Assembly: GCA_963739985.1 (NCBI GenBank)
Contig: CAVUCE010000015.1
Location: forward strand, 6,990 to 70,989
DNA: 64,000 bases
Reading direction: 5' to 3'
Source of the DNA: an uncultured Ignavibacteriales bacterium
GTDB taxonomy: Bacteria; Bacteroidota; Ignavibacteria; Ignavibacteriales; Ignavibacteriaceae
Numbering within the stretch: position 1 is the stretch's first letter; the number at the start of each line of letters is the position of its first letter. Shown here piece by piece: positions 28,922 through 51,187 of this stretch. Both the position numbers and the translations under genes were made by a program. The notes below the pieces were generated by a model that was not told where the DNA came from, searched no databases, and saw nothing but the letters and a program-made list of their open reading frames with translations.

Positions 28922-28941
28922 ACTGAAACAGGAATTCCCGA

Positions 28942-36825: not shown

Positions 36826-38475
36826 ATGCATAAATTGAAATTCTTATTAATAATCTCTCTCGCACTTCTATCATTCAGTTGCTCAGCGCAGATAACACAT
36901 CCTGTATATATTCGTGCTAACCAGGTTGGATATCTACCAAACGATTTTAAAACCGCGGTTGCATTCTCAAAATATCCTGTAGAGGAAAATCAGTTTAATA
37001 TCCTTAATAAAAAAGACGGGGAAGAAGTATATTCCGGAAAATTAGAAATTAGTAATGAAAATTATGGGGACTTCAAATATTGCTATACTCTGAACTTTTC
37101 TAGGCTTAATAAAAATGGTAATTATGAAATAGAAATTGGAAAACAAAAATCTTTTGCCTTTTCAATTGGGAATAAAATATTTGACAATATCGCCGATTCA
37201 TTATTATTGTTCTTCAAAGTTCAGAGATGCGGACCTACTAATCCATTAATGCATAAACCATGTCACTTATCTGATGTTTCAAGATTAGTTGGTGATCCAA
37301 ATTATCATGGTGCCGTTGATGTAACCGGAGGATGGCACGATGCAGGTGACTATATCAAGTTTCTTTCAACTACCGCTTATGCAACATACATGATGATATT
37401 TTCTTACGAATTTGATCCTGTTAAATATGGTTTTGATGATAATCATGATGGTGTCCCTGATCTTTTAGCTGAAGCAAAAATAGGACTTGATTGGTTGTTG
37501 CGATGTAACTATTCCAAATACAAATTGATTACTCAAGTTCAAAATTTGAGAGATCATGATGTGGGTTGGAGAATGCCATCTGCAGATACTTTACGTTATG
37601 ATAGGCCAGGCTACGTTAGTATGGGTAAAAATCAAATCGGAATTTTTACCGCCGTTATGGCTATTGCTTCTAGAGTTTGGGCCGATAAATTTCAAAAGTA
37701 TGATTTCTCGCAGAAATGTCTTCAAGCTGCTGAAAATATTTATTCTATTAGAAATGATGTTCCTAATATCGATAGCACTAAATCCGGATTTTATCAGGAT
37801 AATGCTTTCTGGGGAAAAATGGCATTAGGCGCAGTTGAACTTTATACAACTACTAAAAAACATGAATATTTTATCGATGCTAAAACTTACGCAGATAGCG
37901 CCGGTTCTGATTATTGGTGGAGTTGGGGAAATATAAATTCACTTGCAGATTATAAAATTGCAAAATATGAACCGAGATTCGCCGATTACATTTTAAATAA
38001 TCTTAAAGTTTTTAATGCTAAAAAGGATTCTTCTGTTTTTAGAGAAGGGATGCCTTATGTTTGGGGAACGACAAATTCTTTGCTTGGTATATCATTGCAA
38101 GCGATATTATACAAAACTTTAACCGGTAGTCATAGGTTTGATTCGCTTGAAGTTTATGAAAGAGATTATGTACTAGGAAGAAATCCCTGGGGCTTGTCTT
38201 TTATATATAATATTGGAACTATGTTTCCAAAACATTTGCATAACCAAATTGCTTATTTTCATAATGGATATTTACCCGGTGGTTTATCTGCCGGTGCAGC
38301 ACCTGAAAATATACTTAAGGAGTTTGATATTAAACGATCAAATAATAAGTACACTATGTTTAATACGGATTCCATAAAATATTATGATGATAGAAACGAT
38401 TATATAACAAATGAACCGACGATAACCGGAAATGCTACTGCAATTTTTGTATACGGTTATTTTAGTAATAGATAG
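36826..38475 (+). CDS. secreted glycoside hydrolase family 9 enzyme with an N-terminal Ig-like domain
   Basis: Signal peptide, then the GH9 signature DVTGGWHDAGDYIKF, and C-terminal YYDDRNDYITNEPTI. Confidence 0.85.
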   Translation: MHKLKFLLIISLALLSFSCSAQITHPVYIRANQVGYLPNDFKTAVAFSKYPVEENQFNILNKKDGEEVYSGKLEISNENYGDFKYCYTLNFSRLNKNGNYEIEIGKQKSFAFSIGNKIFDNIADSLLLFFKVQRCGPTNPLMHKPCHLSDVSRLVGDPNYHGAVDVTGGWHDAGDYIKFLSTTAYATYMMIFSYEFDPVKYGFDDNHDGVPDLLAEAKIGLDWLLRCNYSKYKLITQVQNLRDHDVGWRMPSADTLRYDRPGYVSMGKNQIGIFTAVMAIASRVWADKFQKYDFSQKCLQAAENIYSIRNDVPNIDSTKSGFYQDNAFWGKMALGAVELYTTTKKHEYFIDAKTYADSAGSDYWWSWGNINSLADYKIAKYEPRFADYILNNLKVFNAKKDSSVFREGMPYVWGTTNSLLGISLQAILYKTLTGSHRFDSLEVYERDYVLGRNPWGLSFIYNIGTMFPKHLHNQIAYFHNGYLPGGLSAGAAPENILKEFDIKRSNNKYTMFNTDSIKYYDDRNDYITNEPTITGNATAIFVYGYFSNR

Positions 38476-38768
38476 TTATTTCATATTTCTGTGCTACTTT
38501 CCTGAACTTTATTCTGTTAATGTCATTTTTCTGATGAACTCCAGATAATCAAAAAATATTTTTTACAAAAACTCATTATATATCTCGTTTATTATAGTTT
38601 TATTATAGTCTCATCTCAGAACTAAGTTTTATTTGTACACCAGTTTTTAAATGTTGCATTTTAATACAGCAAATTTCTAATGTCTCTATTTAAATCACAA
38701 TATTTAACTAAATATATAAAAATGGTTTAATTATAAGCACTTAAGGTGTCGGCATAATATTTGGAATT

Positions 38769-39536
38769 TTGTATGGAAAAATGAATGGAGCAACGTTGAA
38801 GAAGATAAAATTATTGAATTCAGGTTTGCCAATGATAGATAAAGCTTGGGGAGGATTTTATCGGGCAGCAACATATTTAATGATCGGACAAAGAAAATCC
38901 GGTCGAACATCTTTAGCATTACAGTTTGCAAAAGAATGTGTTAAACAAAAAGAAGTTTGTCTTTACATAACAAATATTCGTCCTAAAGAATTATTAATTC
39001 ACGCCTCTTCGATAGATTTTGATCTTCAAGAAGCAATGAATAAAAACGAAGTTATCGTTGTAAAAGTTGTTCCACCTACAGGAACTGAAATTTCAACAAA
39101 CCCAGATCAATTTTTAGCAGAATATTTAAAAGATATTATTACAGTTGTAGATGAATATCAGCCAACCAAAATTGTATTTGATGAATTAACTCCTTTTATC
39201 GAGTTTGAAAATCCCGACTACTTACATGATGTTTTTGCCCAGACAATTGAAGAAATTGAAGATATGGGAATCACTAACTTTTTCGTCTTAAGCGATCCGG
39301 CTACCGAACCAGCAGTTGAATTAATTGAATCATTAGTCAGTGCATCAACAGGTGTAATTTATTTGAAGAAAGATGATGAAGGAACCAGTGGAGAGATAAC
39401 TATTACTCCCAATGTTGGTCATCCCGAGGGTAAGTTTAAAGCAAAATACAAAATTGAACCTTATATAGGAATGACATTTGATGAGAACAAAGTTCCGGAA
39501 TCACCGAGCAAAAATACTTCTATTAAAGAGTTATAA
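38769..39536 (+). CDS. KaiC/RecA-like P-loop-fold protein with degenerate Walker A (GQRKSGRT)
   Basis: LPMIDKAWGGFYRAATYLMIGQRKSGRTSLALQF... aligns by eye to the KaiC/RadA pattern G.D...GG...G...L..G..G.GKT...LQF, but has Arg in place of the P-loop Lys. A Walker-B-like KIVFDELTPF is present. It is a paralog of the N-terminal half of 39586-40842. Confidence 0.65.
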   Translation: MYGKMNGATLKKIKLLNSGLPMIDKAWGGFYRAATYLMIGQRKSGRTSLALQFAKECVKQKEVCLYITNIRPKELLIHASSIDFDLQEAMNKNEVIVVKVVPPTGTEISTNPDQFLAEYLKDIITVVDEYQPTKIVFDELTPFIEFENPDYLHDVFAQTIEEIEDMGITNFFVLSDPATEPAVELIESLVSASTGVIYLKKDDEGTSGEITITPNVGHPEGKFKAKYKIEPYIGMTFDENKVPESPSKNTSIKEL

Positions 39537-39585
39537 AATTTTAAGTATATGATCAAATATTATTTAATAATAGATAAGTTATAAG

Positions 39586-40842
39586 ATGCGACAAAAGATA
39601 CAAATCAGCCGTTCTGGAATAATGCTAGTAGATAAAGCATGGGGAGGATTTTACCGTGGAGGCACCTATTTACTAATCGGTCCTCGAAAATCCGGTAGAA
39701 CTTTACTTAGCCTTCAGTACGCGATGGAAAGCGCACGCCAAAAGGAAGTCTGCTTATACTTTACGAGTATGCGTCCAAAGGACTTGATGATCCAAGCAGC
39801 CTCAATAGACTTTGATCTTCAGCATTATATGAACCAAAACTTGATCATAGTAGTAAGAGTGGCGCCACCATCAGACTTATACGAGGTAGGCAACCCGGAT
39901 GAGTTTTTGGTAGAGTATCTTAACGACATAGTCACAGTAGTAGACCAGTACCAGCCAAATAAAATAGTATTTGACGAGTTAACGCCATTTATCGGTTTCA
40001 GTAACGTAGATCTTTTAGAGGAAGTCTACTCCAGAACAGCCGAAACGATAGAGGATATAGGTATAACAAGTTTATTTACGGTAGGAGATCCGGCCACACC
40101 GGCAGCCAGTCATATAGTAGACGCATTGGCCAATCACTCCACCGGCATCATATACCTAAAGAAGTCGGAAGAAGACGAGTTGACTGAAATGGGCAGAACG
40201 CAAGGCGGGAAGATGATCATAACGCCAAACATCGGCCATACAGAAGGAAAGTTCAGCTCAAATTATTATATAGAGCCGTACCGCGGCATCACTGTAGATT
40301 ACGGAAATGAAGAAAGTAATAGTTACGGAGAATCTTCCGGTAGCGTCACACAGTCCCGCAAGTATAAATCGCTAGCAGAGATAGATTTGCCGAACGAGCA
40401 AGTATCTTTCTCTAACATATATACCATGAACGATTTCAATTTAATCTTAAATAACCAGATAGCCTTGTATAAGAGTACCGGTCAGATATTTACAATAATC
40501 TCATTCCGATTGGATTTTACGGCAGAGAAGTTGGGATTATTGACTATCAGCCAGTTACAGAACGCAGTTCGTTTATCCACGGATAAGAAGGATAAGATCT
40601 GCATAATCAACGATAAGGTTATAGTTTTAGTAACGAAGGATGACCCCAAGGGTATCAACTTCTTTATAGGTAAGATAAAGAGCAATCTTCCGAACAGCGA
40701 ACCGGGTTACTTGAGCCGTGTTCTTCAGTATATTTCTGTTTACGCAGTAAAGGTAGATGATCGAGTTCAGAGTGCAGAAGACATATTGGGTCAGTTATTA
40801 TCGGAAGATATCCCGGAAAAAAACAAATTAGGATTTCACTAG
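39586..40842 (+). CDS. KaiC/RecA-like (degenerate P-loop GPRKSGRT) fused to a degenerate GGDEF-like C-terminal domain, copy 1
   Basis: The N-terminal half resembles 38769-39536. The C-terminal roughly 130 aa (MNDFNLILNNQIALYKSTGQIFTIISFRLDF...RLSTDKKDKICIINDKVIVLV...FIGKIK) follows the GGDEF-domain secondary-structure and hydrophobic pattern, with INDK where GGDEF would sit. Confidence 0.6.
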   Translation: MRQKIQISRSGIMLVDKAWGGFYRGGTYLLIGPRKSGRTLLSLQYAMESARQKEVCLYFTSMRPKDLMIQAASIDFDLQHYMNQNLIIVVRVAPPSDLYEVGNPDEFLVEYLNDIVTVVDQYQPNKIVFDELTPFIGFSNVDLLEEVYSRTAETIEDIGITSLFTVGDPATPAASHIVDALANHSTGIIYLKKSEEDELTEMGRTQGGKMIITPNIGHTEGKFSSNYYIEPYRGITVDYGNEESNSYGESSGSVTQSRKYKSLAEIDLPNEQVSFSNIYTMNDFNLILNNQIALYKSTGQIFTIISFRLDFTAEKLGLLTISQLQNAVRLSTDKKDKICIINDKVIVLVTKDDPKGINFFIGKIKSNLPNSEPGYLSRVLQYISVYAVKVDDRVQSAEDILGQLLSEDIPEKNKLGFH

Positions 40843-41651
40843 AAGAAAGCTGCAATGAAACAAGTAATACTATCATCACTGCTACTTATACTAATTCTAG
40901 GGGGAATAGGACAGCGTGTTTACGGCCAGATAAATCCGGAAGCGATGAGAAATGAAGCCGAGCAAGAGATGAAGTTCGGCAGATACGGGGAGTCAATAGA
41001 TTTGTTGAACCGCTATATTTCAGCCCGTCCACAGAAGGCAGATGGTTATAATTTACGGGGAATCTGTTATGAGAAGCGAGAGCAGTTTGAGTTGTCTGTA
41101 TATGATTATCGATCGGCTCGAAAACTTGATCCAAGTAACAAAGAAATCCGGAAGAATTTAGAGAGAGCGACAAGTACTTGGTATAAGTTGCTATATAATA
41201 ATATAGAGGGATATAAGAGGGAAATAGCGATAAACCCAAATAAGGCAGAGAATTATTTAGAGATAGGTAAAGCATATAAGAATTTAGGCAAGTGGGAAGT
41301 AGCCGAGCAATGGTATGATCAGTATTTGGCGAGGGAACATGCATCACCGGATGAGATAATAAGGTATACGGAGATACTGGCGAAGAATAATCATATAGCC
41401 AAGGGTTGGCCGATACTGAAGAAGTATACAGATGAATATCCGGAAGACCAGCGGTTGTGGTCACGTTACGGATATTTTTCAATGTGGTTGGGAAAGAATA
41501 AGATAGCGATAAAGGCATTTGAGAATGCCTTGGCATTGAAGCCATATTTTAAGGAAGCACAAGACGGATTAGATCAAGCCAAGGGTAAGGGATATATTTA
41601 TACTGTTAACGATACTGCTTCAAGATATAATTATGGGATGCCTGTTCCGGC
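39586..41651 (+). repeat. direct repeat copy 1 (2,066 bp)
   Basis: Offset 5,735 nt to copy 2. The encoded 418-aa proteins are identical except R9/H9 (g39611 vs a45346). The intergenic 12 nt and the first 265 codons of the next gene are identical. Antisense ORF translations are also identical, which implies near-100% nucleotide identity. Confidence 0.9.
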
Positions 41652-43758
41652 AAAATACAAACAGTATGCTATTGATAAATATTATTCAATATTAAAAAAG
41701 CGCCCTGATGATAATGAAATTAGATTCAAATTAGTAAAGGAATTAGTAAAAGCGGAAAGATATTCAGAAGCCAATGATGAATTACAAACTTTAATTCAAG
41801 ATACAAGTAAAACTGAATATCAAGACTATTACACTAATTTTAAATCTCTCAGGGATAGTGTCTTTGAGAAGAGAATAACCGACTATGCAGCCAAGTTTAA
41901 AGCAGATCCACATAATAAAGAAGTAGCAATAAAACTTGCTGATGCTTATGGCCATACATATGATTTTGACAGTTCAATGGAAGTATTGTCAGAATATCTT
42001 AAAGGAATTCCTGAAAATAAAGAATTAGATGTAAGATTTTTATATGCTAAATACGCATCATGGAATTACGAATGGAACGAAGCTAGGGTGACTCTTGATA
42101 ACTTATTAAAATATGATCCTAATAATTTAGATTATCAATTACTCAGTGCCCAAATAACTGCCTGGAATGTAACTGAATCTAAACAAGAAGAAATTGATAA
42201 TGCCAGTAGATATATAAAAAATGTTCTTGCAAAAGATCCTAATAATATGCTTGCTTTGATTGCTGAAGTATATCTAAAATCCGGACAGGGTGACATGGTC
42301 TCAGCCAAAAAAGTTGTGGATCAGTTAAAAACTTTATATCCTGAAAAGAAAGAAATAACAGCTATTCAAAATTATTATAATACGCGACTTCTTGTTGCTA
42401 AAGAAAAAGAAATACTTAATATGCGAGGAAAAGCCGGTAAACTATATCTGGCCGGCAATTGTAATGATGCTTTGAAAATTTATGACGATATTTTCGAAAG
42501 GGAAAAAAATCCAAGCAGAGACCTGATTCTTGAATACGCTTCGGTTAGTTCATGTGCAAAAGCGTATACTCAAGCAATAGATTTATACAATCAGGCATTA
42601 AATTTAAGCTATGATAGTGAAACTGCTAGTTTACTTGCTCTAAATTATTTATGGTCCGGTGATACAACTAAATGCTTAATTATGTTACAAGATTTGCAAG
42701 AAAAAAATCCATCAGATTTTCGTACTAATTATTATTTAGGTGATATTTACGAACGAACTAAACAACCTGAAAAAGCTATAGCAATATATGATAGACTCTT
42801 GTCTGATTCTTTAAGAAGCAATTTAGATTCAACACAAATTGCAACATTAGAAACTAGATTAGGTTATCTTAACACCGGATTCGGAGGAGGCTTTGGAAGG
42901 TTTCCTGCATACGTTGCACTTTCACCGATGGCATCTTATTATGCAGATAACCAAGATTTTAGATTATCAGATATTGGTGGGCGGTTAGAGGTAGGAATTA
43001 CCAGTTTCTTAACAATAGGTGCTTCATATTCCCGAACCGGATTAACTAATAAATATTATACAAGATATTTAAGCTCTAACAAGTGGCTTGCATATTTAAG
43101 ATTGGTTAAAGGATTAACAGCTTCAGTCGGCTTCGGAACAATTCATACCGTTGGCTATTCTCCAAAAAACATCGCTGATGCTTCATTGAAGTACCAGGGT
43201 GTTGAAGATAGATTGACTACTTCATTATCTTATGAAACAACAGACGGAAGACTAGCTTTATATTCACCTTATATATTAGATAAAGATTACAGAGTAAACA
43301 TTGTTAGATTTAATATTGATTATTTATTCAGATCAGGTTTTAAGGTATTAGCTAATTATCAACACCTTTCAATAAGCGATAATAATAGCGGAGATAATCT
43401 CCAATTCAGATTAGGTAAATCGCTATACAAAGATTTGTTTATCGGATATGAATATTTGTATTCCAATTTTTCGTTCATGTCTTCATACTATTACTCCCCG
43501 GCAAGTTTTAGTGCACATAGCATTTGGTTTGATTGGAGGCCGTTAAACGAAGACAATATAAAATTAGATTTTGGCGGAAAGTTCGGTTATGTTCCGCAGA
43601 GCGATTACTTGCTTAGAGAAGGATTTGGGCAAATAACCTATAAACCACTTCCTATATTAAATATTGTAGCGAGAATTTCAGCAGCAAGTTCTTATCGATA
43701 TGATGGAAGTTATAACTATTTATCTGGTTTAATTTCGGCATATATCAGCTTGTTTTAA
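40855..43758 (+). CDS. outer-membrane polysaccharide export protein A: TPR region plus C-terminal beta-barrel (PgaA/BcsC/PelB-like)
   Basis: Signal peptide, about 600 aa of TPR-like repeats (ADGYNLRGICYEKREQFELSVYDYRSARKLDPSN...). The C-terminal roughly 300 aa shows an alternating hydrophobic beta-strand pattern ending ...SAYISLF, an OMP-type terminal Phe. Confidence 0.65.
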   Translation: MKQVILSSLLLILILGGIGQRVYGQINPEAMRNEAEQEMKFGRYGESIDLLNRYISARPQKADGYNLRGICYEKREQFELSVYDYRSARKLDPSNKEIRKNLERATSTWYKLLYNNIEGYKREIAINPNKAENYLEIGKAYKNLGKWEVAEQWYDQYLAREHASPDEIIRYTEILAKNNHIAKGWPILKKYTDEYPEDQRLWSRYGYFSMWLGKNKIAIKAFENALALKPYFKEAQDGLDQAKGKGYIYTVNDTASRYNYGMPVPAKYKQYAIDKYYSILKKRPDDNEIRFKLVKELVKAERYSEANDELQTLIQDTSKTEYQDYYTNFKSLRDSVFEKRITDYAAKFKADPHNKEVAIKLADAYGHTYDFDSSMEVLSEYLKGIPENKELDVRFLYAKYASWNYEWNEARVTLDNLLKYDPNNLDYQLLSAQITAWNVTESKQEEIDNASRYIKNVLAKDPNNMLALIAEVYLKSGQGDMVSAKKVVDQLKTLYPEKKEITAIQNYYNTRLLVAKEKEILNMRGKAGKLYLAGNCNDALKIYDDIFEREKNPSRDLILEYASVSSCAKAYTQAIDLYNQALNLSYDSETASLLALNYLWSGDTTKCLIMLQDLQEKNPSDFRTNYYLGDIYERTKQPEKAIAIYDRLLSDSLRSNLDSTQIATLETRLGYLNTGFGGGFGRFPAYVALSPMASYYADNQDFRLSDIGGRLEVGITSFLTIGASYSRTGLTNKYYTRYLSSNKWLAYLRLVKGLTASVGFGTIHTVGYSPKNIADASLKYQGVEDRLTTSLSYETTDGRLALYSPYILDKDYRVNIVRFNIDYLFRSGFKVLANYQHLSISDNNSGDNLQFRLGKSLYKDLFIGYEYLYSNFSFMSSYYYSPASFSAHSIWFDWRPLNEDNIKLDFGGKFGYVPQSDYLLREGFGQITYKPLPILNIVARISAASSYRYDGSYNYLSGLISAYISLF

Positions 43759-43861
43759 TAAAATATCTTCTGATAACTAATGCTCATAGTTTGTCGGAAA
43801 TTAAATCAAGCATTAAATTTTAACATATTAAATAAATGATTCTATATTCAGGAGGCAAATA

Positions 43862-45124
43862 ATGGTTCGTATTTCGAATATTCGGATGTTATTAACGATT
43901 TTAATATTTTTTTGTTTAGCACTTCCTTCTAGCCTAATTAAAGCAAAAGATAATAACAATTCATCTGAAAAATTGAATAATAATTCCGCAGCATATTACA
44001 GTGGGTACGGAAAGAAAGTCCCAATAACCGGTAACGTATCAGAATTAAAAAACTTTTTTGACGCATTAAGTACCACAAAACAAGATAAAATTAGAATAGC
44101 ACATTACGGAGATTCAGTAATATGGGGAGATATTATTACTGATGATTTGAGACAAGATTTTCAAGATAAATTCGGCGGCCACGGTGCAGGTATCCAATCT
44201 GTTTGTTCCGACGATATAAAAGTTAAAGAAACTACAAAACACACTTTCTCTGATAATTGGAAATGGAATTCTCTCTTTACCTCAAACATTGAAAATTTTC
44301 CAATCGGAATTGCGGCTACCTCGGCAACTCCAAAAGGGAATAGCGCATGGATTAAGTACGAAGCTACAAATTTTAGAGAATCTTCAAACTCATTTAAAAT
44401 TGCAAAATTATTTTACAATAACGTAAATGCTGGTGCAAGTATTAAATATTCATTTAACAATGGTCCCGAACAAACAGCTAAACTGAAAGCCGGCAAGAAT
44501 CTTCAAGAATTTGAGATGAACTCATCCGGCAGCGCAAGATCATTAAAAATTACGTTTGAAAATTGCCAGGGTGGTTACTTTTATGCCGTAAGCTTAGAAG
44601 ATGGCAATGGAGTTTATGTTGACAACTTTCCGTTGAGAGGTAACTCGGGAGCTTCATTATTAGATTTTAATGAAGATTTAATGAAAGACTTTAACAAAAA
44701 ATTGAACTATAAACTAATTATTCTAAACTATGGTTTAAATATTGCTTCGGCTGAACAAACTAACTATGAATGGTACAAGCACAAAATGATCCGAGTAGTT
44801 AAATCTTTTCAAAAGAATTTTCCTGATGCTAGTATTTTATTCATGGGAGTTGGAGATAGAAGCATAAAAAAGGGGTCAAGATTTGTTTCTGATCCGGCAG
44901 TTGAAAGATTAATATCGGTACAAAAAGAAATTGCTGAAAAAACGAACGTTGCATTTTGGAATTTATTTGAGGCAATGGGCGGTAAAAATTCGATGACTGA
45001 CTGGGTACAAGCTCGTCCGGCTTTAGGTTATGTTGATTATTCACATTATACTCCTGAAGGCGGAAAATTAGTTGCCGATCTTTTAACTGAAGCATTGATG
45101 GATGCTTATAAAAATTCGCATTAA
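43862..45124 (+). CDS. secreted SGNH/GDSL-fold protein, paralog of 27194-28657
   Basis: IRIAHYGDSVIWGDIITDDLRQDFQDKFGGHGAGI compares with IRIAHFGDSEIEGDLITAELRKKLQSKYGGEGVGY. Similarity continues to the C-terminus (VAFWNLFEAMGGKNSMTDWV vs IAFWNLFNSMGGKNSMGTWV). Confidence 0.65.
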   Translation: MVRISNIRMLLTILIFFCLALPSSLIKAKDNNNSSEKLNNNSAAYYSGYGKKVPITGNVSELKNFFDALSTTKQDKIRIAHYGDSVIWGDIITDDLRQDFQDKFGGHGAGIQSVCSDDIKVKETTKHTFSDNWKWNSLFTSNIENFPIGIAATSATPKGNSAWIKYEATNFRESSNSFKIAKLFYNNVNAGASIKYSFNNGPEQTAKLKAGKNLQEFEMNSSGSARSLKITFENCQGGYFYAVSLEDGNGVYVDNFPLRGNSGASLLDFNEDLMKDFNKKLNYKLIILNYGLNIASAEQTNYEWYKHKMIRVVKSFQKNFPDASILFMGVGDRSIKKGSRFVSDPAVERLISVQKEIAEKTNVAFWNLFEAMGGKNSMTDWVQARPALGYVDYSHYTPEGGKLVADLLTEALMDAYKNSH

Positions 45125-45151
45125 TTTAACCCAAAGTATTATTTTAGCTTA

Positions 45152-45181
45152 AGTGTCTCTGAATAGAGGCACTTTTTTTTG
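45152..45181 (+). terminator. rho-independent terminator after the SGNH paralog
   Basis: agtgtctct / gaat / agaggcact gives a 9-bp stem with one G-U pair, followed by eight T. Confidence 0.75.
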
Positions 45182-45320
45182 AGATTATTGTGAATTATTT
45201 TGATACATATTATGTTCAAAATCTCATTATAAGTATAATTTTTGGACTTATCTTGTTAGAAAGTCATCATTTTTAACGGCACAAAAATTGAAAATTATAC
45301 AAAAAAACAGTTAGGTAATT

Positions 45321-46577
45321 ATGCGACAAAAGATACAAATCAGCCATTCTGGAATAATGCTAGTAGATAAAGCATGGGGAGGATTTTACCGTGGAGGCAC
45401 CTATTTACTAATCGGTCCTCGAAAATCCGGTAGAACTTTACTTAGCCTTCAGTACGCGATGGAAAGCGCACGCCAAAAGGAAGTCTGCTTATACTTTACG
45501 AGTATGCGTCCAAAGGACTTGATGATCCAAGCAGCCTCAATAGACTTTGATCTTCAGCATTATATGAACCAAAACTTGATCATAGTAGTAAGAGTGGCGC
45601 CACCATCAGACTTATACGAGGTAGGCAACCCGGATGAGTTTTTGGTAGAGTATCTTAACGACATAGTCACAGTAGTAGACCAGTACCAGCCAAATAAAAT
45701 AGTATTTGACGAGTTAACGCCATTTATCGGTTTCAGTAACGTAGATCTTTTAGAGGAAGTCTACTCCAGAACAGCCGAAACGATAGAGGATATAGGTATA
45801 ACAAGTTTATTTACGGTAGGAGATCCGGCCACACCGGCAGCCAGTCATATAGTAGACGCATTGGCCAATCACTCCACCGGCATCATATACCTAAAGAAGT
45901 CGGAAGAAGACGAGTTGACTGAAATGGGCAGAACGCAAGGCGGGAAGATGATCATAACGCCAAACATCGGCCATACAGAAGGAAAGTTCAGCTCAAATTA
46001 TTATATAGAGCCGTACCGCGGCATCACTGTAGATTACGGAAATGAAGAAAGTAATAGTTACGGAGAATCTTCCGGTAGCGTCACACAGTCCCGCAAGTAT
46101 AAATCGCTAGCAGAGATAGATTTGCCGAACGAGCAAGTATCTTTCTCTAACATATATACCATGAACGATTTCAATTTAATCTTAAATAACCAGATAGCCT
46201 TGTATAAGAGTACCGGTCAGATATTTACAATAATCTCATTCCGATTGGATTTTACGGCAGAGAAGTTGGGATTATTGACTATCAGCCAGTTACAGAACGC
46301 AGTTCGTTTATCCACGGATAAGAAGGATAAGATCTGCATAATCAACGATAAGGTTATAGTTTTAGTAACGAAGGATGACCCCAAGGGTATCAACTTCTTT
46401 ATAGGTAAGATAAAGAGCAATCTTCCGAACAGCGAACCGGGTTACTTGAGCCGTGTTCTTCAGTATATTTCTGTTTACGCAGTAAAGGTAGATGATCGAG
46501 TTCAGAGTGCAGAAGACATATTGGGTCAGTTATTATCGGAAGATATCCCGGAAAAAAACAAATTAGGATTTCACTAG
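45321..46577 (+). CDS. KaiC/RecA-like plus degenerate GGDEF-like protein, copy 2
   Basis: 418 aa, identical to 39586-40842 except H9 for R9. Confidence 0.6.
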   Translation: MRQKIQISHSGIMLVDKAWGGFYRGGTYLLIGPRKSGRTLLSLQYAMESARQKEVCLYFTSMRPKDLMIQAASIDFDLQHYMNQNLIIVVRVAPPSDLYEVGNPDEFLVEYLNDIVTVVDQYQPNKIVFDELTPFIGFSNVDLLEEVYSRTAETIEDIGITSLFTVGDPATPAASHIVDALANHSTGIIYLKKSEEDELTEMGRTQGGKMIITPNIGHTEGKFSSNYYIEPYRGITVDYGNEESNSYGESSGSVTQSRKYKSLAEIDLPNEQVSFSNIYTMNDFNLILNNQIALYKSTGQIFTIISFRLDFTAEKLGLLTISQLQNAVRLSTDKKDKICIINDKVIVLVTKDDPKGINFFIGKIKSNLPNSEPGYLSRVLQYISVYAVKVDDRVQSAEDILGQLLSEDIPEKNKLGFH

Positions 46578-47386
46578 AAGAAAGCTGCAATGAAACAAGT
46601 AATACTATCATCACTGCTACTTATACTAATTCTAGGGGGAATAGGACAGCGTGTTTACGGCCAGATAAATCCGGAAGCGATGAGAAATGAAGCCGAGCAA
46701 GAGATGAAGTTCGGCAGATACGGGGAGTCAATAGATTTGTTGAACCGCTATATTTCAGCCCGTCCACAGAAGGCAGATGGTTATAATTTACGGGGAATCT
46801 GTTATGAGAAGCGAGAGCAGTTTGAGTTGTCTGTATATGATTATCGATCGGCTCGAAAACTTGATCCAAGTAACAAAGAAATCCGGAAGAATTTAGAGAG
46901 AGCGACAAGTACTTGGTATAAGTTGCTATATAATAATATAGAGGGATATAAGAGGGAAATAGCGATAAACCCAAATAAGGCAGAGAATTATTTAGAGATA
47001 GGTAAAGCATATAAGAATTTAGGCAAGTGGGAAGTAGCCGAGCAATGGTATGATCAGTATTTGGCGAGGGAACATGCATCACCGGATGAGATAATAAGGT
47101 ATACGGAGATACTGGCGAAGAATAATCATATAGCCAAGGGTTGGCCGATACTGAAGAAGTATACAGATGAATATCCGGAAGACCAGCGGTTGTGGTCACG
47201 TTACGGATATTTTTCAATGTGGTTGGGAAAGAATAAGATAGCGATAAAGGCATTTGAGAATGCCTTGGCATTGAAGCCATATTTTAAGGAAGCACAAGAC
47301 GGATTAGATCAAGCCAAGGGTAAGGGATATATTTATACTGTTAACGATACTGCTTCAAGATATAATTATGGGATGCCTGTTCCGGC
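45321..47386 (+). repeat. direct repeat copy 2 (2,066 bp)
   Basis: See copy 1. Identity begins at the ATG and ends after ...cctgttccggc. The two sequences then diverge (caaaataca vs tcctgctta) but both stay in frame. Confidence 0.9.
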
Positions 47387-49463
47387 TCCTGCTTATTCAT
47401 ATCCTATTGATAAGTTTTATCATAAGTTAAAATCTAATCCGGATGATACCGATACACGATTAAAGCTAGTTAAAGCTTTATATAAAGCGAATAGATTAGA
47501 AGAGGCATATCAACAAGTACAAATTTTATCTAAAACTCCGGTCGATTCAACACTGGCATTTCAGGAATTAAAAGATCAGATATTATCATACCGCGAGAAA
47601 TATTATGCGCAAAAAATTGAAGAATATAAAACCAAGCTAAAAGATAATCCGCATGATAAGAAAGCTGTTCTCATGTTAGGTACATATTATGCCAATCTTA
47701 GGGATTACGATAAAGCGACTGAATTGTATAACGACTATCTAAGTTTTGATCCCGGTGATAAAGAAATTATTTATAGAAGTGCACAAGTTGCTGCCTGGAA
47801 TCATGATTTTTCTACGGCTATTGATAAGATGGATGAACTTTTAAAAATGCAGCCTAATAATTTAAAGTATCAAATGTTTAGAGGACAATTGGCAGTTTGG
47901 ACAAGTCGAGATTTAGATTTAGGTGAAAAATATTTAACAAATGTGGAAAAAAGTGATTCGAGTAATTTAAACCTTTTAGTTTCACTTGGATCATTATACT
48001 TGCAGAAACAAAATTTTGATCTTTCGCAAAGTTACATTAAAAGAGCAAAAGCAATCGATCCTAATGAACCTAATCTTAACAAATTAGAATCTGATTATGT
48101 ATTCCAGCAATTAAGGGCACAGCAAGAAAAATTATTTAAGATTCTTGAAGAAGGCCGCAAATTAGCTATGGACGGTGATTGTGAAGCTGCATTGCCTAAG
48201 TACGAAGAATACATGTCGAAAGCTGAACCTAATCGTTTAATAAGAAAAGAATATGCAGACGCAAATGCTTGCGCACATAATTATGCTAAGGCAATAAGTA
48301 TTTATGATGATCTTTTAGGAAATCAGTATGATTATGACATTGACTTACAAAGAGCTAAAGTTTACTACTATATGGGAGATTCAACAAAGGCTCTTTCAGC
48401 CTTTCAGAAACTTGCGGAAGATAACCCTGGTGAGTATGATGTTAATTTGTATTTAGGTGATTCATATACCAAAATGCATGAGTATTCAAAAGCTCGAAGT
48501 GTATATGATAACATTTTAGAAAACAATGATGATAGCTTACGAACTGCTGTCGTGGAGCAAAGGTTATCGTGGTTGCCTGTTACAGGCTTTGCCGGAATAA
48601 TAGATTCTTTCCCCAGTTATGTGTTACTTACTCCAAGTGCAACTTTTTATGGAGATAATTTAGGATTCAGATATAACACACAAGGATTACGAGCCGATTT
48701 AGGAATAGCTCAATTTTTATCAATTGGAGCTGAAGGTAGCAGAGGAACGTTAGCCTCGGATAATTTGAGAGAAAATTTCACTCAATTTAAGTGGAATATT
48801 GGTTTTAGATTTACTCCGGAAATTACTGCCGGTATCGGATTTGGAACTGAGAATTTTGGATTAGCAAATGATCAAAAGAATATAGCTGATGGATATTTCA
48901 AATACGATGTTCCAAAGCATTATGGGGTAAAAGTTAATTTCTCTATGATGGATGCTTCTCAAATCCTTTATTCTCCATTCCTCGTTGGAGTTAGAATGGA
49001 TGCTAAGGCTGTGAATTTTGGAGGTTATTACAGATTCAAAGCCGGGTTTAATTTCTCCGCAAAGTATACATATATCGATGTTTCCGACGGTAATAAAGGT
49101 GGAAATCTTGAGTTGCGTGTTGGAAAATATTTTATGCCGAATTTTTTGTTTGGGTATGAATTTTATAACTCAAATTTTGATTTCAATTCTTATCTCTACT
49201 TTTCACCGCAAAATTATTCATCGCATAGTTTGTTTGCGGATTGGAATATAATTGGAAACGAAAAATTGCAACTAGATGCCGGAGGTAAGATCGGTTTGAT
49301 CACAAATAGTAGCTATATTTTACGTCAAGGTTTTATCTCAGCAACTTATAAAGTTATTAAAAGCTTATCAGTTCAAGCATATTTAGCAGCTGGAAGTAGC
49401 GTACAAGATCAGTCGGGATATAATTCTTTGGCATTTACACTTGCGGCTTACTGGACTCTTTGA
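46590..49463 (+). CDS. outer-membrane polysaccharide export protein B: TPR region plus C-terminal beta-barrel, paralog of 40855-43758
   Basis: The first 265 aa are identical to protein A. The remaining roughly 690 aa are colinear but only about one-third identical by eye, with the same TPR-then-barrel layout. Confidence 0.65.
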   Translation: MKQVILSSLLLILILGGIGQRVYGQINPEAMRNEAEQEMKFGRYGESIDLLNRYISARPQKADGYNLRGICYEKREQFELSVYDYRSARKLDPSNKEIRKNLERATSTWYKLLYNNIEGYKREIAINPNKAENYLEIGKAYKNLGKWEVAEQWYDQYLAREHASPDEIIRYTEILAKNNHIAKGWPILKKYTDEYPEDQRLWSRYGYFSMWLGKNKIAIKAFENALALKPYFKEAQDGLDQAKGKGYIYTVNDTASRYNYGMPVPAPAYSYPIDKFYHKLKSNPDDTDTRLKLVKALYKANRLEEAYQQVQILSKTPVDSTLAFQELKDQILSYREKYYAQKIEEYKTKLKDNPHDKKAVLMLGTYYANLRDYDKATELYNDYLSFDPGDKEIIYRSAQVAAWNHDFSTAIDKMDELLKMQPNNLKYQMFRGQLAVWTSRDLDLGEKYLTNVEKSDSSNLNLLVSLGSLYLQKQNFDLSQSYIKRAKAIDPNEPNLNKLESDYVFQQLRAQQEKLFKILEEGRKLAMDGDCEAALPKYEEYMSKAEPNRLIRKEYADANACAHNYAKAISIYDDLLGNQYDYDIDLQRAKVYYYMGDSTKALSAFQKLAEDNPGEYDVNLYLGDSYTKMHEYSKARSVYDNILENNDDSLRTAVVEQRLSWLPVTGFAGIIDSFPSYVLLTPSATFYGDNLGFRYNTQGLRADLGIAQFLSIGAEGSRGTLASDNLRENFTQFKWNIGFRFTPEITAGIGFGTENFGLANDQKNIADGYFKYDVPKHYGVKVNFSMMDASQILYSPFLVGVRMDAKAVNFGGYYRFKAGFNFSAKYTYIDVSDGNKGGNLELRVGKYFMPNFLFGYEFYNSNFDFNSYLYFSPQNYSSHSLFADWNIIGNEKLQLDAGGKIGLITNSSYILRQGFISATYKVIKSLSVQAYLAAGSSVQDQSGYNSLAFTLAAYWTL

Positions 49464-49480
49464 TAATTACAAAAATTTAA

Positions 49481-49501
49481 GTACCGGATATTTGCCGGTA
49501 C
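49481..49501 (+). terminator. terminator-like hairpin after porin B
   Basis: gtaccgg / atatttg / ccggtac is a perfect 7-bp stem. The downstream region is only moderately T-rich. Confidence 0.4.
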
Positions 49502-49783: not shown

Positions 49784-51187
49784 ATGGAATTAAATCAAAA
49801 AGTTAAAAAAGCAACAATCATTCTTGATAATATTCAGGATGACCCAAAAGAAGAATTGAGTGAAAAGAAATACCTAAGAAGAATTTTAATAACAGGTGCT
49901 ATTTCATTACTTTTACTTTTAGTCATCATATACACATTGCCTTTAACAGTCCTTTCTATAAAGTCTCTATTAGAGTATGCAACCATTGTTGCACTTGTGA
50001 TCTTTCTCTTTGTATTATTGTTTAGATACTTCGCAATTTTGGTGCTCGCTTATCTTTACATTAACCAATACACGTATAAAAAAGTAGAAGGTTTTTTCCC
50101 GTTTGTATCCATTATTGTACCGGTTTATAATGAAGAAAAGGTTATTCATGATTCTATTGATTCATTGTTACAACTTAACTACTCCAATTACGAAATTATA
50201 ATTGTTAATGATGGCTCAACCGATGGTACAAAGGAAGCTGCTTCAACATTAGTCGGTTATCATAAGGGCAAAAACGACGATAACATAAAAGTTTCACTAA
50301 TCAATAAACCAAACGGCGGTAAATCAAAAGCTCTGAATGCAGGAATCAGATATTCGAAAGCAGAGATAGTTCTTTGCATGGATGGTGACTCCCAGTTATC
50401 TCCGGATTCTTTAAGATTAGCTGTAAGACATTTTACTAATCCGGAAATTGGCGCTGTTGCTGGTAACGTGAAAGTTTTGAATCGTGGTAATTTATTTACA
50501 GATCTTCAGGCACTTGAATATATTGAAGGTTTGAATATGGCAAGAAGTGCTCAAAGTTATATTAGACTAGTAAACATTATTCCGGGACCTATCGGATTAT
50601 TTAGAAAAAAAGCTATTGAAGAGGCAGGATTTTATTCTAGCGACACATTTGCTGAAGACGCTGATTTAACTCTTAAAGTTTTAGCAAACGGCTGGAAAAT
50701 ATATTACGAACCAAATTCAATTTCGTTTACAGAAGCCCCGGCAAAATTACAACAGTTGTTAAAACAAAGATACAGATGGACACGCGGTATTTTGCAGTCA
50801 ATTAGAAAACATAAAAAATTAATGTTGAACCCAACTGTAAACTTTGGCGATACCTTTATTTTATGGACTATGGTTTATGAAGCTTTAATTTGGCCTACAA
50901 TGAATATTGCAGCTAACTTGTTCTTTATAATTGCTGCTTTGGCATTCGGATTTTCATCTTTGATTTTCTTCTGGTGGGCTGGCTTAGCGCTTTTGGATTT
51001 TGTAACAGCATTGTATTGCGTTGCTGTTGAAAAGGAAGAATTTAGATTAGTCGGATATTCAATCATTTATAGAATGTTTTTCATTCTCATCATAGATATT
51101 TGTAAAGCCATGTCAACCATTGAAGAATTTCTTGGTATTAGAATGACATGGGGAAAACTTGAAAGAGTTGGATCGGCAAAAGCATAA
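49784..51187 (+). CDS. processive family-2 glycosyltransferase (PgaC/IcaA/NodC-type polysaccharide synthase)
   Basis: N- and C-terminal TM helices flank a GT-A domain with SIIVPVYNEE, NDGSTDGT, NGGKSKALN, MDGDSQL, EDADLT and the processivity motif QRYRWTRG. Confidence 0.85.
   Translation: MELNQKVKKATIILDNIQDDPKEELSEKKYLRRILITGAISLLLLLVIIYTLPLTVLSIKSLLEYATIVALVIFLFVLLFRYFAILVLAYLYINQYTYKKVEGFFPFVSIIVPVYNEEKVIHDSIDSLLQLNYSNYEIIIVNDGSTDGTKEAASTLVGYHKGKNDDNIKVSLINKPNGGKSKALNAGIRYSKAEIVLCMDGDSQLSPDSLRLAVRHFTNPEIGAVAGNVKVLNRGNLFTDLQALEYIEGLNMARSAQSYIRLVNIIPGPIGLFRKKAIEEAGFYSSDTFAEDADLTLKVLANGWKIYYEPNSISFTEAPAKLQQLLKQRYRWTRGILQSIRKHKKLMLNPTVNFGDTFILWTMVYEALIWPTMNIAANLFFIIAALAFGFSSLIFFWWAGLALLDFVTALYCVAVEKEEFRLVGYSIIYRMFFILIIDICKAMSTIEEFLGIRMTWGKLERVGSAKA

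What the first reader, a model, noticed from the sequence alone, without database searches (positions are those of the whole stretch)
39586..47386. 2,066-bp near-identical direct repeat that starts at a start codon and ends in frame inside two diverged genes
Copies 39586-41651 and 45321-47386 (offset 5,735) differ at one position I could find (g39611 / a45346). Identity begins within about 2 nt of the ATG of the RecA*-GGDEF* gene. It stops abruptly after codon 265 of the porin genes, beyond which the two genes are only about one-third identical in protein sequence.

The block is compositionally distinct. Hand counts give 52/120 G+C at 39601-39720, versus 19/60 just past the boundary at 41701-41760. 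Its ATA/GTA-rich codon choice leaves long open antisense frames.

This pattern fits recent gene conversion, or insertion of a foreign cassette into both paralogous modules, rather than a simple tandem duplication. No IS or integrase is nearby.
Basis: seen in the sequence. Interest (0 to 1): 0.7.

Follow-up and report, generated by a model that had tools for sequence, protein, structure and literature searches.

The report
Shared identical head of two export modules
Two neighbouring, anciently diverged polysaccharide-export gene pairs in an uncultured soil bacterium (Ignavibacteriaceae) share a 2,066-bp front end that has been made identical by very recent copying, and this block uses a codon dialect foreign to its host. 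It is a clean natural example of gene conversion, probably spreading an imported allele, but not a new kind of system.

Summary
Window 39586-41651 and 45321-47386 are identical except G/A at 39611. The block starts at the A of an ATG and ends inside codon 266 of two TPR-plus-predicted-barrel export genes, whose remainders are 33% identical.

It is not an assembly artefact. K-mer contigs from two public sequencing runs break exactly at both repeat ends, and the contigs from one run reconstruct the tandem order.

The locus is a conserved Ignavibacteria Pga-like polysaccharide operon. Of about 125 related loci, nearly all have one module. Only one other (L036) has two, and there the heads are 74% identical. 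The 100% identity here is therefore derived homogenisation.

The block is compositionally alien at synonymous sites only. GC3 is 0.40-0.46, against 0.25±0.03 in 42 other window genes. Lys AAG is 0.80 (host 0.19) and Ile ATT is 0.07 (host 0.56). No relative matches this codon usage. The alien core (about 39715-41589) lies inside the identity block.

Best reading: an imported head allele copied between tandem paralogous modules by gene conversion. The donor is unknown and the codon pattern remains unexplained.

This is a known kind of process, and interest is moderate.

The parts
39586..41651 (+). Repeat copy 1 ('head' H1). It holds the whole 418-aa KaiC*-GGDEF* gene, a 12-nt spacer, and the first 265 codons plus 2 nt of the TPR export gene PorA.
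   Evidence: Logan contig L148 joins GH9-KaiC0-spacer to H positions 1-30.
45321..47386 (+). Repeat copy 2 ('head' H2). It has the same content as copy 1, fused to the PorB tail.
   Evidence: Logan contig L003 (2,066 bp) is identical to this copy.
39611..39611 (+). The only difference between the copies (G in copy 1, A in copy 2; Arg9/His9). It is polymorphic between read sets.
   Evidence: In run ERR11523667, contig L148 carries A at this position of copy 1. In run ERR11594398, contig L090 reaches H position 56, as expected if the copies differ there.
39715..41589 (+). Core with alien codon usage inside copy 1. The equivalent stretch in copy 2 is 45450-47324.
   Evidence: The maximum-scoring codon-usage log-likelihood-ratio segment is 39715-41589. 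The GC3 change-point estimate is 39711-41541, with 2-LL support 39642-39723 for the start and 41529-41610 for the end.
39586..40842 (+). KaiX1. It has a KaiC/RAD55-like domain with a Walker A Lys-to-Arg change (GPRKSGRT), a disordered linker, and a degenerate GGDEF-fold domain.
   Evidence: Pfam PF06745. AlphaFold and Foldseek. Walker A motif.
45321..46577 (+). KaiX2, identical to KaiX1 except residue 9.
40855..43758 (+). PorA (967 aa): signal peptide, TPR region and a predicted C-terminal barrel. It is the A-type tail, which is linked to an SGNH gene in relatives.
46590..49463 (+). PorB (957 aa). It is the B-type tail, followed directly by GT2 as in most relatives.
41652..45320 (+). Unique 3,669-bp spacer between the repeats: PorA tail, SGNH gene and a 196-nt intergenic region.
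   Evidence: Logan contig L089 equals window 41622-45350, that is, this spacer plus 30-nt overlaps into H on both sides.
43862..45124 (+). SGNH/GDSL-like protein (420 aa), present only in module A.
   Evidence: Pfam PF13472, below the curated cut-off. Syntenic in A-type relatives.
45151..45182 (+). Terminator-like hairpin (10-bp stem) followed by T8, lying between SGNH and H2.
38769..39536 (+). KaiC0, a short KaiC-only paralogue. It is 57% identical in protein to the KaiX N-terminal domain and has host-like codon usage. The public gene call starts at 38832.
36826..38475 (+). GH9 glycoside hydrolase, the conserved first gene of the locus.
49784..51187 (+). GT2 synthase (PgaC/IcaA-like, below the curated cut-off).
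51223..51732 (+). 169-aa protein with no family match, in the position that PgaD occupies in Pga operons.
51723..53621 (+). Polysaccharide deacetylase-domain protein (632 aa).
40886..41545 (-). 219-aa antisense ORF, duplicated at 46621-47280. I judge it a by-product of the block's avoidance of NTT/NCT codons.
   Evidence: The antisense frame of sense positions 2-3-1 has 3.8 stops/kb here, against 27-32 in the tails. KaiX shows the same codon bias without an open antisense frame. No Pfam hit. The frame is not conserved in relatives.

Best explanation
The window carries a conserved Ignavibacteria synthase-dependent exopolysaccharide locus. Its gene order is: GH9 hydrolase, KaiC-type genes, TPR-plus-barrel export protein, optional SGNH enzyme, GT2 synthase, small protein, deacetylase.

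This genome has two export modules in tandem. Module A is head - A tail - SGNH. Module B is head - B tail. The tails are ancient alternatives found singly in other genomes.

The 'head' is an evolutionarily separable unit. It consists of a pseudo-ATPase/pseudo-GGDEF gene plus the signal peptide and first TPR block of the export protein. It is strongly conserved across the family, and in some relatives its TPR part is a separate gene.

In this lineage the two heads have been made identical by very recent non-reciprocal homologous recombination (gene conversion). The tract is bounded 5' by the start of homology (the ATG). It is bounded 3' by the point where family-wide conservation collapses.

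The allele now present in both heads has a core of about 1.85 kb whose synonymous codon usage is foreign to the host. This core was most likely imported by recombination from an unsampled relative and then copied to the second module.

Shown:
- the identity and its exact limits;
- the reality of both copies in the reads;
- the ancient divergence of the tails;
- the 74% 'unconverted' state in L036;
- the synonymous-site anomaly and its nesting inside the repeat.

Inferred:
- the direction and order of events;
- the horizontal origin of the core;
- the functions of the proteins.

A predicted consequence is that RecA-type recombination between the 2-kb direct repeats would delete the A tail, SGNH and one head as a 5,735-bp circle. 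That would leave the single B-type locus seen in most relatives.
For: Identity and limits.

Both copies are real:
- In run ERR11523667, L148 (…KaiC0-IG-H[1-30]), L003 (H exactly, 2,066 bp) and L089 (H[last 30]-A tail-SGNH-IG-H[1-30]) break at both repeat ends with k-1 overlaps.
- In run ERR11594398, L090 crosses the SGNH-to-H2 junction, and L092 starts 30 nt before the end of H and runs into the B tail and GT2.
- The tandem order is the same in the window and in ENA contig_25455, which differ at 12 of 21,256 sites.

Family context:
- I examined 80 GTDB loci and 54 metagenome loci. Nearly all have a single module.
- A-type tails go with SGNH, and B-type tails are followed by GT2.
- L036 has the same A-SGNH-B order, with heads 74% identical in protein and 73.7% in DNA, and tails 37% identical.

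Modularity of the head:
- Family pairwise identity is 0.55-0.75 over Por aa 31-255 and falls to about 0.25-0.5 beyond aa 260-300.
- In L011, L023 and L065 the head is a separate gene of about 320 aa, and the tail gene has its own signal peptide.

Alien composition:
- GC3 is 0.458 (KaiX) and 0.404 (PorN) against 0.250 ± 0.031 in other window genes, with GC1 and GC2 normal.
- KaiX GC3 minus neighbouring genes is +0.223 here, against -0.015 ± 0.028 (maximum +0.043) in 71 relatives.
- Codon fractions are given.

Nesting of the core inside the repeat.

Polymorphism of the single copy-specific site between read sets.
Against: - No donor was found. The closest KaiX and head proteins among 5.8 billion sequences are 71-73% identical. 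None of about 125 related loci has a comparable codon usage.
- The protein distance of the block's KaiX to relatives is exactly what the host's own GT2 distance predicts. There is therefore no phylogenetic sign of transfer. A host-internal cause of the codon shift is not excluded.
- The 5' limit falls exactly at the ATG, with no detectable upstream homology. This is awkward for a classical conversion tract, which needs homology on both sides. It may point to a duplicative or illegitimate junction instead.
- The 5' 'shoulder' of host-like codons is statistically weak, because the core itself is heterogeneous.
- Recombination between heads that were about 74% identical would be rare.
- Read depth and spanning long reads could not be examined.
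Confidence: 0.6

Rival explanations
1. Duplicative origin rather than conversion. The ancestor had one module (KaiC0 - head - B tail - GT2, as in L024). A 5,735-bp segment (A tail - SGNH - spacer - head, or equivalently head - A tail - SGNH - spacer) was then added. This could have happened by Campbell-type integration of a circle sharing the head, or by unequal or illegitimate recombination between A-type and B-type alleles of two conspecific strains. On this view the two heads were identical from the moment the tandem arose.
For: - The 5' limit of identity is exactly at the ATG, with no upstream homology. That looks more like a junction than the end of a conversion tract.
- The repeat-spacer-repeat geometry is what single-crossover integration produces.
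- A-type and B-type single-module loci both exist in the family.
- The closest B tail (L024, 58%) sits in a KaiC0-KaiX-PorB locus.
- The region upstream of KaiC0 is the one homologous to the region directly upstream of KaiX in single-module relatives.
Against: - L036 shows the same A-SGNH-B order with diverged heads. The tandem is therefore probably old.
- The model needs a donor carrying an identical head.
- A junction exactly at a start codon would be a coincidence.
- The A tail and SGNH have host-like codon usage while the head core does not. The segment would therefore itself have to be a mosaic.
Confidence: 0.22
2. The block is native, and its odd codon usage is produced in place. One possible cause is long-term concerted evolution with biased repair (GC-biased gene conversion). 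Another is selection on synonymous sites, for example codon-dependent translational control, avoidance of T-ending NYT codons, or an antisense product. The identity would then be the current state of continuous homogenisation.
For: - The protein divergence of the block from relatives is as expected for a vertically inherited gene.
- The anomaly is confined to synonymous sites and to the region that is being homogenised.
- No donor exists in very large databases.
- The copy-specific SNP is polymorphic between samples, which is compatible with ongoing conversion.
Against: - Much of the shift is from A/T to A/T or is strand-asymmetric. ATT goes to ATA and GTT to GTA. T3 falls from 0.43 to 0.25 while A3 is unchanged. 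GC-biased conversion does not predict this.
- The other double-module genome shows no such shift.
- The bias is equally strong in KaiX, where no antisense frame is open.
- The last 20 codons of the repeat are host-like although they are also homogenised.
Confidence: 0.13
3. Assembly or polishing artefact. On this view one real copy was written twice, or two strain alleles (A-type and B-type) were stitched into a false tandem.
For: - The source is a metagenome assembly. The ERZ250394xx series with contig_N names matches the Nanopore/Flye/Medaka Microflora Danica data.
- Read depth was not available.
Against: - A false tandem would lack the junction from the SGNH spacer to the start of H. That junction is present in k-mer contigs of two runs (L089, L090).
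- KaiC0-spacer to H (L148) and H to the B tail (L092) are also present.
- The breaks fall exactly at the repeat ends, as expected for a true two-copy node.
- Polishing cannot make sequences that are about 74% identical become identical.
Confidence: 0.03

Closest known systems
Segmental gene conversion or concerted evolution between bacterial paralogues (for example tufA/tufB in enterobacteria, or opa and pilE/pilS in Neisseria). This comparison is from my general knowledge and was not tested against those loci.
   Same: A stretch of near-identity with sharp limits lies inside paralogues that are otherwise old. The tract covers the conserved part of the genes. No mobile-element machinery is involved.
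   Different: - The tract spans a whole gene plus the 5' third of the next gene.
- It lies in tandem direct orientation only 3.7 kb apart.
- The homogenised allele has a codon usage foreign to the genome.
Pga system for poly-beta-1,6-GlcNAc (PgaA TPR-porin, PgaB deacetylase, PgaC GT2, PgaD), together with the related Bcs and Pel synthase-dependent systems.
   Same: - The locus has a GT2 synthase whose best match is PgaC/IcaA, a polysaccharide deacetylase domain protein and a TPR protein with a long C-terminal extension.
- It also has a small protein after the synthase and a glycoside hydrolase.
- A degenerate GGDEF-fold protein recalls PelD and BcsE.
   Different: - All matches are below the curated family cut-offs.
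- The GGDEF-like domain is fused to a KaiC-like pseudo-ATPase.
- The hydrolase is GH9.
- There are two export modules.
- The barrel and c-di-GMP binding were not tested.
Homologous (xenologous) allele replacement by recombination with DNA from a related lineage.
   Same: The anomaly is confined to synonymous sites. The core has sharp edges inside conserved coding sequence. The reading frame and protein family are kept intact.
   Different: No donor has been identified. Protein distances to relatives show no displacement. The codon usage matches none of about 125 related loci.

Membership tests
Gene conversion between paralogues | A tract of (near-)identity flanked on at least one side by homologous but strongly diverged sequence in the same genes. 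| tested here: met
   2,065/2,066 bases are identical. After the boundary, ungapped nt identity is 56-66% for about 150 nt (45% protein identity over aa 266-318), and the tails overall are 33% identical in protein.
Gene conversion between paralogues | The paralogues are older than the identity, because the same paralogous pair is diverged in another genome. | tested here: met
   L036 has the same A-SGNH-B order, with heads 74% and tails 37% identical. Caveat: it is the only comparator, and its second module has a short KaiC gene instead of KaiX.
Gene conversion between paralogues | Homology on both sides of the tract, as needed for a conversion intermediate. | tested here: inconclusive
   Met at the 3' side. 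At the 5' side identity starts at the ATG and the upstream spacers are unrelated.
Horizontally acquired segment | Composition or codon usage that deviates from the host. | tested here: met
   GC3 lies 5 to 7 SD above the other window genes. AAG is 0.80 against 0.19, and ATT is 0.07 against 0.56.
Horizontally acquired segment | An identifiable donor lineage or phylogenetic incongruence. | tested here: not met
   The best non-self hits are 71-73% identical. KaiX distances fit the host's GT2 distances. No relative shares the codon usage. There is no plasmid or phage match.
Mobile element, IS or integron cassette | A transposase, integrase or recombinase, together with terminal inverted repeats or attachment sites. 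| tested here: not met
   No such Pfam domain was found in any ORF of at least 150 aa in the window. No inverted repeats of at least 40 nt occur in 36000-52000.
Pga-type poly-N-acetylglucosamine system | A PgaC/IcaA-family GT2 synthase. | tested here: inconclusive
   The best NCBIfam hit is TIGR03937, at 198.9 bits against a cut-off of 422.3.
Pga-type poly-N-acetylglucosamine system | A PgaA-type export protein, that is, periplasmic TPR plus an outer-membrane beta-barrel. | tested here: inconclusive
   The TPR region is shown. PgaA models match only the TPR part and score far below cut-off. The barrel was not modelled.
Pga-type poly-N-acetylglucosamine system | A PgaB-type de-N-acetylase. | tested here: inconclusive
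   A Polysacc_deac_1 domain is present at aa 323-433 (39.4 bits) in a 632-aa protein. No PgaB equivalog hit was found.
GGDEF domain (diguanylate cyclase or degenerate c-di-GMP receptor) | GGDEF fold. | tested here: met
   The model of aa 268-418 has pLDDT 82. All 50 top PDB hits are GGDEF domains, with TM 0.56-0.64 and E down to 4.7e-5 for the best-ranked ones; PelD is at rank 45.
GGDEF domain (diguanylate cyclase or degenerate c-di-GMP receptor) | A GG[DE]EF active-site motif, or an RxxD I-site that binds c-di-GMP. | tested here: not met
   There is no Pfam or PDB sequence match. The hairpin reads ...CIINDKV.... By my own reading of the sequence, no RxxD lies at the usual distance. Binding cannot be tested here.
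KaiC/RAD55/RecA-like ATPase | RecA-like fold with a Walker A motif GxxxxGK[ST]. | tested here: inconclusive
   The fold and Pfam PF06745 are met. Walker A reads GPRKSGRT, with Arg replacing the catalytic Lys, and this Arg is nearly invariant in the family.

The most novel reading that the evidence does not exclude
The identical, recoded head may be more than a frozen accident. It could be a maintained device with two parts:
- Frequent recombination between the 2-kb direct repeats would reversibly excise and re-integrate a 5.7-kb circle (head + A tail + SGNH). This would switch the cell between two export and modification states of its exopolysaccharide.
- The peculiar synonymous recoding (AAG, GAG, ACG, ATA enriched; NYT codons avoided), unmatched in any relative, would be selected. 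It might serve codon-dependent translational control of the regulator and head, rather than being inherited from a donor.
Probability: 0.08. Interest if true: 0.65.

Novelty: new member of a known kind. Interest (0 to 1): 0.4.

Why it matters
This is an unusually clean natural record of how modular envelope machinery evolves. A conserved 'adapter' head is kept identical on two anciently different outer-membrane export tails. The homogenised allele also carries a compositional tag, which lets import and intragenomic copying be told apart at about 100-nt resolution.

The case also offers an explanation for why most relatives have a single B-type module. Recombination between the heads would delete the A module.

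For annotation, it flags an undescribed and widespread Ignavibacteria exopolysaccharide locus with a KaiC-like/GGDEF-like fusion protein. More than 1,200 homologues of that protein were found.

The process itself, gene conversion plus allele import, is well known.

Tried and rejected
- Antisense gene as the cause of the codon bias: rejected. The open antisense frame is the one sensitive to NTT/NCT codons. However, KaiX has the same bias with 16-19 antisense stops/kb. The ORF has no Pfam hit, and the frame is not conserved in relatives.
- Simple GC-biased gene conversion: disfavoured. ATT-to-ATA and GTT-to-GTA shifts occur, and T is depleted but A is not.
- A GC-richer relative as donor: rejected as tested. 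Relatives with 41-44% GC in the same clade (L010, L013, L021) have AAG of about 0.4 and ATT of about 0.4, far from the block. The best codon-usage fit of 70 loci is -1.148 LL per codon, against -0.974 for the block's own usage.
- A donor on a plasmid or phage: no DNA match.
- Mobile elements: none found.
- Structured RNA in the region: no Rfam hit above gathering score in 36000-52000.
- The spacer upstream of copy 2 (45125-45320) has no detectable homologue in the window or in any relative locus. It does not reveal the ancestral arrangement.
- A literature search on GC-biased conversion in bacterial paralogues returned nothing directly applicable.
- The supplementary accession tables of the Microflora Danica paper were not available, so I could not tie the run accessions to samples.

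Full report
**1. The observation**

A base-by-base comparison at an offset of 5,735 nt shows that window 39586-41651 and 45321-47386 are identical at 2,065 of 2,066 positions. The only difference is G39611 versus A45346.

Identity begins at the A of the ATG of a 418-aa gene. The upstream bases are AAG|ATG in copy 1 and ATT|ATG in copy 2. The preceding 37 nt match at only about 46%, which I judge to be about chance level in AT-rich DNA (my estimate, not computed).

Identity ends after the second base of codon 266 of the following gene of about 960 aa. Past the boundary the two proteins are 45% identical over aa 266-318, 28% over aa 319-660 and 36% over aa 661-967, or 32.9% overall.

**2. Are both copies real?**

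The window corresponds to a 725-kb contig. The version in ENA (ERZ25039549, contig_25455) differs from the window at 12 of 21,256 aligned sites and has the same tandem arrangement.

A sister accession (ERZ25039483, contig_11192) is the same contig as a GTDB MAG named MFD01721.bin.1.37. These assemblies therefore belong to the Nanopore/Flye/Medaka Microflora Danica series (PMC12313526). This link is an inference from naming. The accession tables were not available.

Evidence from independent k-mer assemblies comes from Logan contigs built from the raw runs.

In run ERR11523667:
- L148 equals window 36132-39615 (GH9, KaiC0, spacer, then the first 30 nt of the repeat).
- L003 is exactly the 2,066-bp repeat.
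- L089 equals window 41622-45350. That is the last 30 nt of the repeat, the PorA tail, SGNH, the spacer, and the first 30 nt of the repeat.

In a second run, ERR11594398:
- L090 crosses the junction from the SGNH spacer into the repeat by 56 nt.
- L092 starts 30 nt before the repeat's end and continues through the PorB tail into GT2 and beyond.

Thirty-nucleotide overlaps are what a k=31 graph gives for a node with two predecessors and two successors. The repeat limits are therefore real branch points in the reads of two runs, and the nodes recovered from one run are consistent with the tandem order.

A free 5.7-kb circle plus a single-module chromosome would give the same graph. Only the long-read assemblies argue for integration.

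Read depth could not be examined.

**3. The single difference between the copies**

The window and the ENA contig have G in copy 1 and A in copy 2. In run ERR11523667, the contig entering copy 1 carries A. The repeat node there starts at position 1, which requires both copies to share A.

In run ERR11594398, the contig entering copy 2 runs to position 56. This is as expected if the copies differ at position 26.

The only copy-specific site is therefore polymorphic among populations. The ENA version has one further private variant, at position 279 of copy 2. Divergence between the copies (0-2 sites) is no greater than divergence between populations (about 0.06%).

**4. What the genes are**

*The 418-aa protein ('KaiX').* It has a KaiC/RAD55-type domain (Pfam PF06745, E 1e-20; Foldseek top hits all KaiC). 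Its Walker A motif reads GPRKSGRT, with Arg in place of the catalytic Lys, and this Arg is nearly invariant in the family. A disordered linker follows.

The C-terminal domain has no sequence-level match. Its model (pLDDT 82) finds only GGDEF domains among the 50 best PDB hits (TM 0.56-0.64), with PelD at rank 45. There is no GGDEF motif.

*The ~960-aa proteins.* They have a signal peptide and many TPR repeats. PgaA models match only the TPR part, far below cut-off. The C-terminal barrel is inferred, not tested.

*The neighbouring genes.* These are a GH9 hydrolase, a short KaiC-only paralogue (KaiC0, 57% identical to the KaiX N-terminal domain), and an SGNH/GDSL-like protein. Then come a GT2 synthase (best match PgaC/IcaA, 199 bits against a cut-off of 422), a 169-aa protein without matches, a deacetylase-domain protein, an FN3 protein and a PAS histidine kinase.

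The locus works like a Pga/Bcs/Pel-type synthase-dependent exopolysaccharide system. It does not pass any curated membership threshold.

**5. Family context**

KaiX has more than 1,200 homologues, nearly all from Ignavibacteria. I examined 80 loci from GTDB genomes and 54 from JGI metagenomes.

The order FA-hydroxylase, response regulator, GH9, (short KaiC), KaiX, Por, (SGNH), GT2, small protein, deacetylase, FN3 is conserved. Nearly all loci have one KaiX-Por module.

There are two tail types. A-type tails are followed by SGNH (L004, L046, L058, L084, L086, L144). B-type tails are followed directly by GT2 (most loci). The window's PorA tail finds A-type loci as best hits (38-41%). Its PorB tail finds B-type loci (up to 58% in L024).

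Only one other genome, L036 (MFD05705.bin.4.417), has both modules, in the same A-SGNH-B order. There the two heads are 74% identical in protein and 73.7% in DNA over 1,026 nt. The tails are 37% identical. That is the expected unconverted state, so the 100% identity in the window is derived.

**6. The head is a separable unit**

Across 56 relatives, pairwise identity along Por is 0.55-0.75 for aa 31-255. It falls to about 0.25-0.5 beyond aa 260-300. The repeat therefore ends where family-wide conservation collapses.

In L011, L023 and L065 the head is a separate gene of about 320 aa. The tail gene there has its own start codon and signal peptide.

The repeat thus comprises KaiX plus most of an evolutionarily autonomous TPR 'head'.

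**7. Composition**

The block has 41.0% G+C and is the richest 2,066-bp stretch of the window (mean 33.4%, SD 2.6).

The shift is entirely at third codon positions. GC3 is 0.458 in KaiX and 0.404 in the Por head, against 0.250 ± 0.031 (maximum 0.326) in 42 other window genes. GC1 and GC2 are normal.

In 71 relatives, KaiX GC3 minus that of neighbouring genes is -0.015 ± 0.028 (maximum +0.043). Here it is +0.223. This is therefore not a property of the gene family.

The codon pattern is specific (block versus host):

| Codon | Block | Host |
|---|---|---|
| Lys AAG | 0.80 | 0.19 |
| Glu GAG | 0.51 | 0.18 |
| Thr ACG | 0.33 | 0.07 |
| Ile ATT / ATA / ATC | 0.07 / 0.64 / 0.30 | 0.56 / 0.31 / 0.13 |
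| Ala GCT | 0.05 | 0.38 |
| Pro CCT | 0.08 | 0.36 |

T-ending NAT and NGT codons are not avoided. T3 falls from 0.43 to 0.25 while A3 is unchanged.

No other gene in the window resembles this. No locus among 70 relatives explains it. The best fit is -1.148 log-likelihood per codon, against -0.974 for the block's own usage and -1.244 for the host. Only 1 of 735 long ORFs in relatives combines AAG above 0.6 with ATT below 0.2. None of the 54 metagenome loci does.

The protein distance of the block's KaiX to relatives is 66-72% identity where GT2 is 81-84% identical. That is what the family relation predicts (69.8 ± 3.1).

The closest KaiX and head proteins in a 5.8-billion-protein collection are 71-73% identical. 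There is no DNA match among plasmids or phages. The block is alien in dialect but has no identifiable donor. This remains unexplained.

**8. The alien core is nested in the repeat**

A two-change-point likelihood on third positions places the GC3-rich segment at 39711-41541. The 2-log-likelihood support is 39642-39723 for the start and 41529-41610 for the end. Both repeat ends lie outside these intervals.

A codon-usage log-likelihood ratio gives 39715-41589. The last 20 codons of the repeat use host-type codons (ATT, ACT, GTT, GCT, AGA, CCT), with a summed ratio of about -10.

The 5' shoulder is weaker, and the core itself is heterogeneous.

Import of the core and homogenisation of the heads therefore appear to be separate events. 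The identity tract is slightly larger than the imported core.

**9. The antisense ORF**

The 219-aa antisense ORF lies in the frame made of sense positions 2-3-1. That is the frame in which NTT, NCT or NTC codons followed by A create stops.

The Por head has 3.8 such stops per kb, against 27-32 in the tails. KaiX shows the same codon avoidance with 16-19 antisense stops per kb and no open frame.

The ORF has no Pfam match. Relatives do not keep this frame open.

**10. Mechanism and alternatives**

*Favoured explanation (0.6).* Two anciently diverged export modules lay in tandem. A head allele with foreign codon usage entered one of them by recombination within conserved coding sequence. Gene conversion then copied the head to the other module.

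The conversion tract was limited 5' by the start of homology and 3' by the conservation drop. If the heads were already being kept similar by conversion, the identical shoulders would have made the second step easy.

*First rival (0.22).* The second head arose together with the tandem, by Campbell-type or unequal recombination between A-type and B-type alleles sharing a head. The limit exactly at the ATG favours this. L036 and the mosaic composition argue against it.

*Second rival (0.13).* The block is native and its recoding arose in place, by biased repair or synonymous selection. Its normal protein distances and the absence of a donor favour this. The A/T-to-A/T and strand-asymmetric changes, and the host-like homogenised shoulder, argue against it.

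*Artefact (0.03).* This is contradicted by the junction-bearing k-mer contigs.

**11. Consequences (inferred)**

A terminator-like hairpin with a T8 run follows SGNH (45151-45182), and another follows PorB. The two modules are therefore probably separate transcription units.

Both modules encode the same KaiX and the same signal peptide plus first TPR block, attached to different tails. A 2-kb perfect direct repeat only 3.7 kb apart should recombine readily. That would delete the A tail, SGNH and one head, and leave the B-type single module that dominates among relatives.

Whether this happens at a useful frequency cannot be told from these data.

**12. Verdict**

The process, segmental gene conversion between tandem paralogues probably spreading an imported allele, is well known. 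I therefore file this as a new member of a known kind.

Two aspects are uncommon. The first is the resolution with which import and copying can be separated. The second is a codon usage that no relative shares.

Interest is moderate (0.4).

Noticed in passing
L011:11237-14202, L023:10704-13684, L065:10027-12995: In these relatives the TPR export gene is split into two genes. One is a head gene of about 320 aa. The other is a tail gene of about 686 aa with its own start codon and signal peptide, overlapping the head's stop. This is a gene fission at roughly the position where the window's repeat ends.
   Followed up: partly
window 39586-40842 and the family alignment A2: The KaiC-like domain has Walker A GPRKSGRT, with Arg in place of the canonical Lys. 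This Arg is nearly invariant across 31 family members, which suggests a non-canonical or inactive ATPase. KaiC0 has the same change (GQRKSGRT).
   Followed up: partly
L007:10001-12855: One relative (MFD01721.bin.1.37) has two full-length KaiX genes in tandem, 64% identical, before a single export gene. Several others (L027, L037, L041 and related loci) have one or two short KaiC-only paralogues upstream. KaiC-type genes are thus repeatedly duplicated at this locus.
   Followed up: no
L004:5206-6377: In relative GCA_044507695.1, an IS element (rve integrase plus HTH_Tnp_1) and several unrelated small genes lie between GH9 and KaiX. This shows that the junction upstream of KaiX tolerates insertions.
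   Followed up: no
window 51723-53621 versus L002:16403-18302: The deacetylase gene is intact (632 aa) in the window and in Logan contig L092. In the ENA version of the same contig it is split into 142-aa and 465-aa calls by a 1-nt indel, probably a residual Nanopore consensus error.
   Followed up: partly
window 45175-45182 versus L091: The T-run of the terminator-like hairpin after SGNH differs in length by one T in run ERR11718636.
   Followed up: no
L044:16977-18476: This is the only ORF among 735 in relatives with AAG above 0.6 and ATT below 0.2. It lies in a locus whose overall G+C (49%) is far above that of its KaiX gene (40%), so that contig may itself be a mosaic or carry a foreign insert.
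   Followed up: no
window 27194-30441: An MBOAT acyltransferase (28942-30441), preceded by a 487-aa protein without Pfam match, lies about 9 kb upstream of the polysaccharide locus. Together with the SGNH protein of module A, this could form a polysaccharide O-acetylation pathway of the AlgI/AlgJ/AlgX type. This is a speculative link.
   Followed up: no
window 38476-38768: The spacer between GH9 and KaiC0 is homologous (70-80% over 46-126 nt in most matches) to the spacer directly upstream of KaiX in single-module relatives. It is therefore probably the conserved promoter or leader of the operon.
   Followed up: partly
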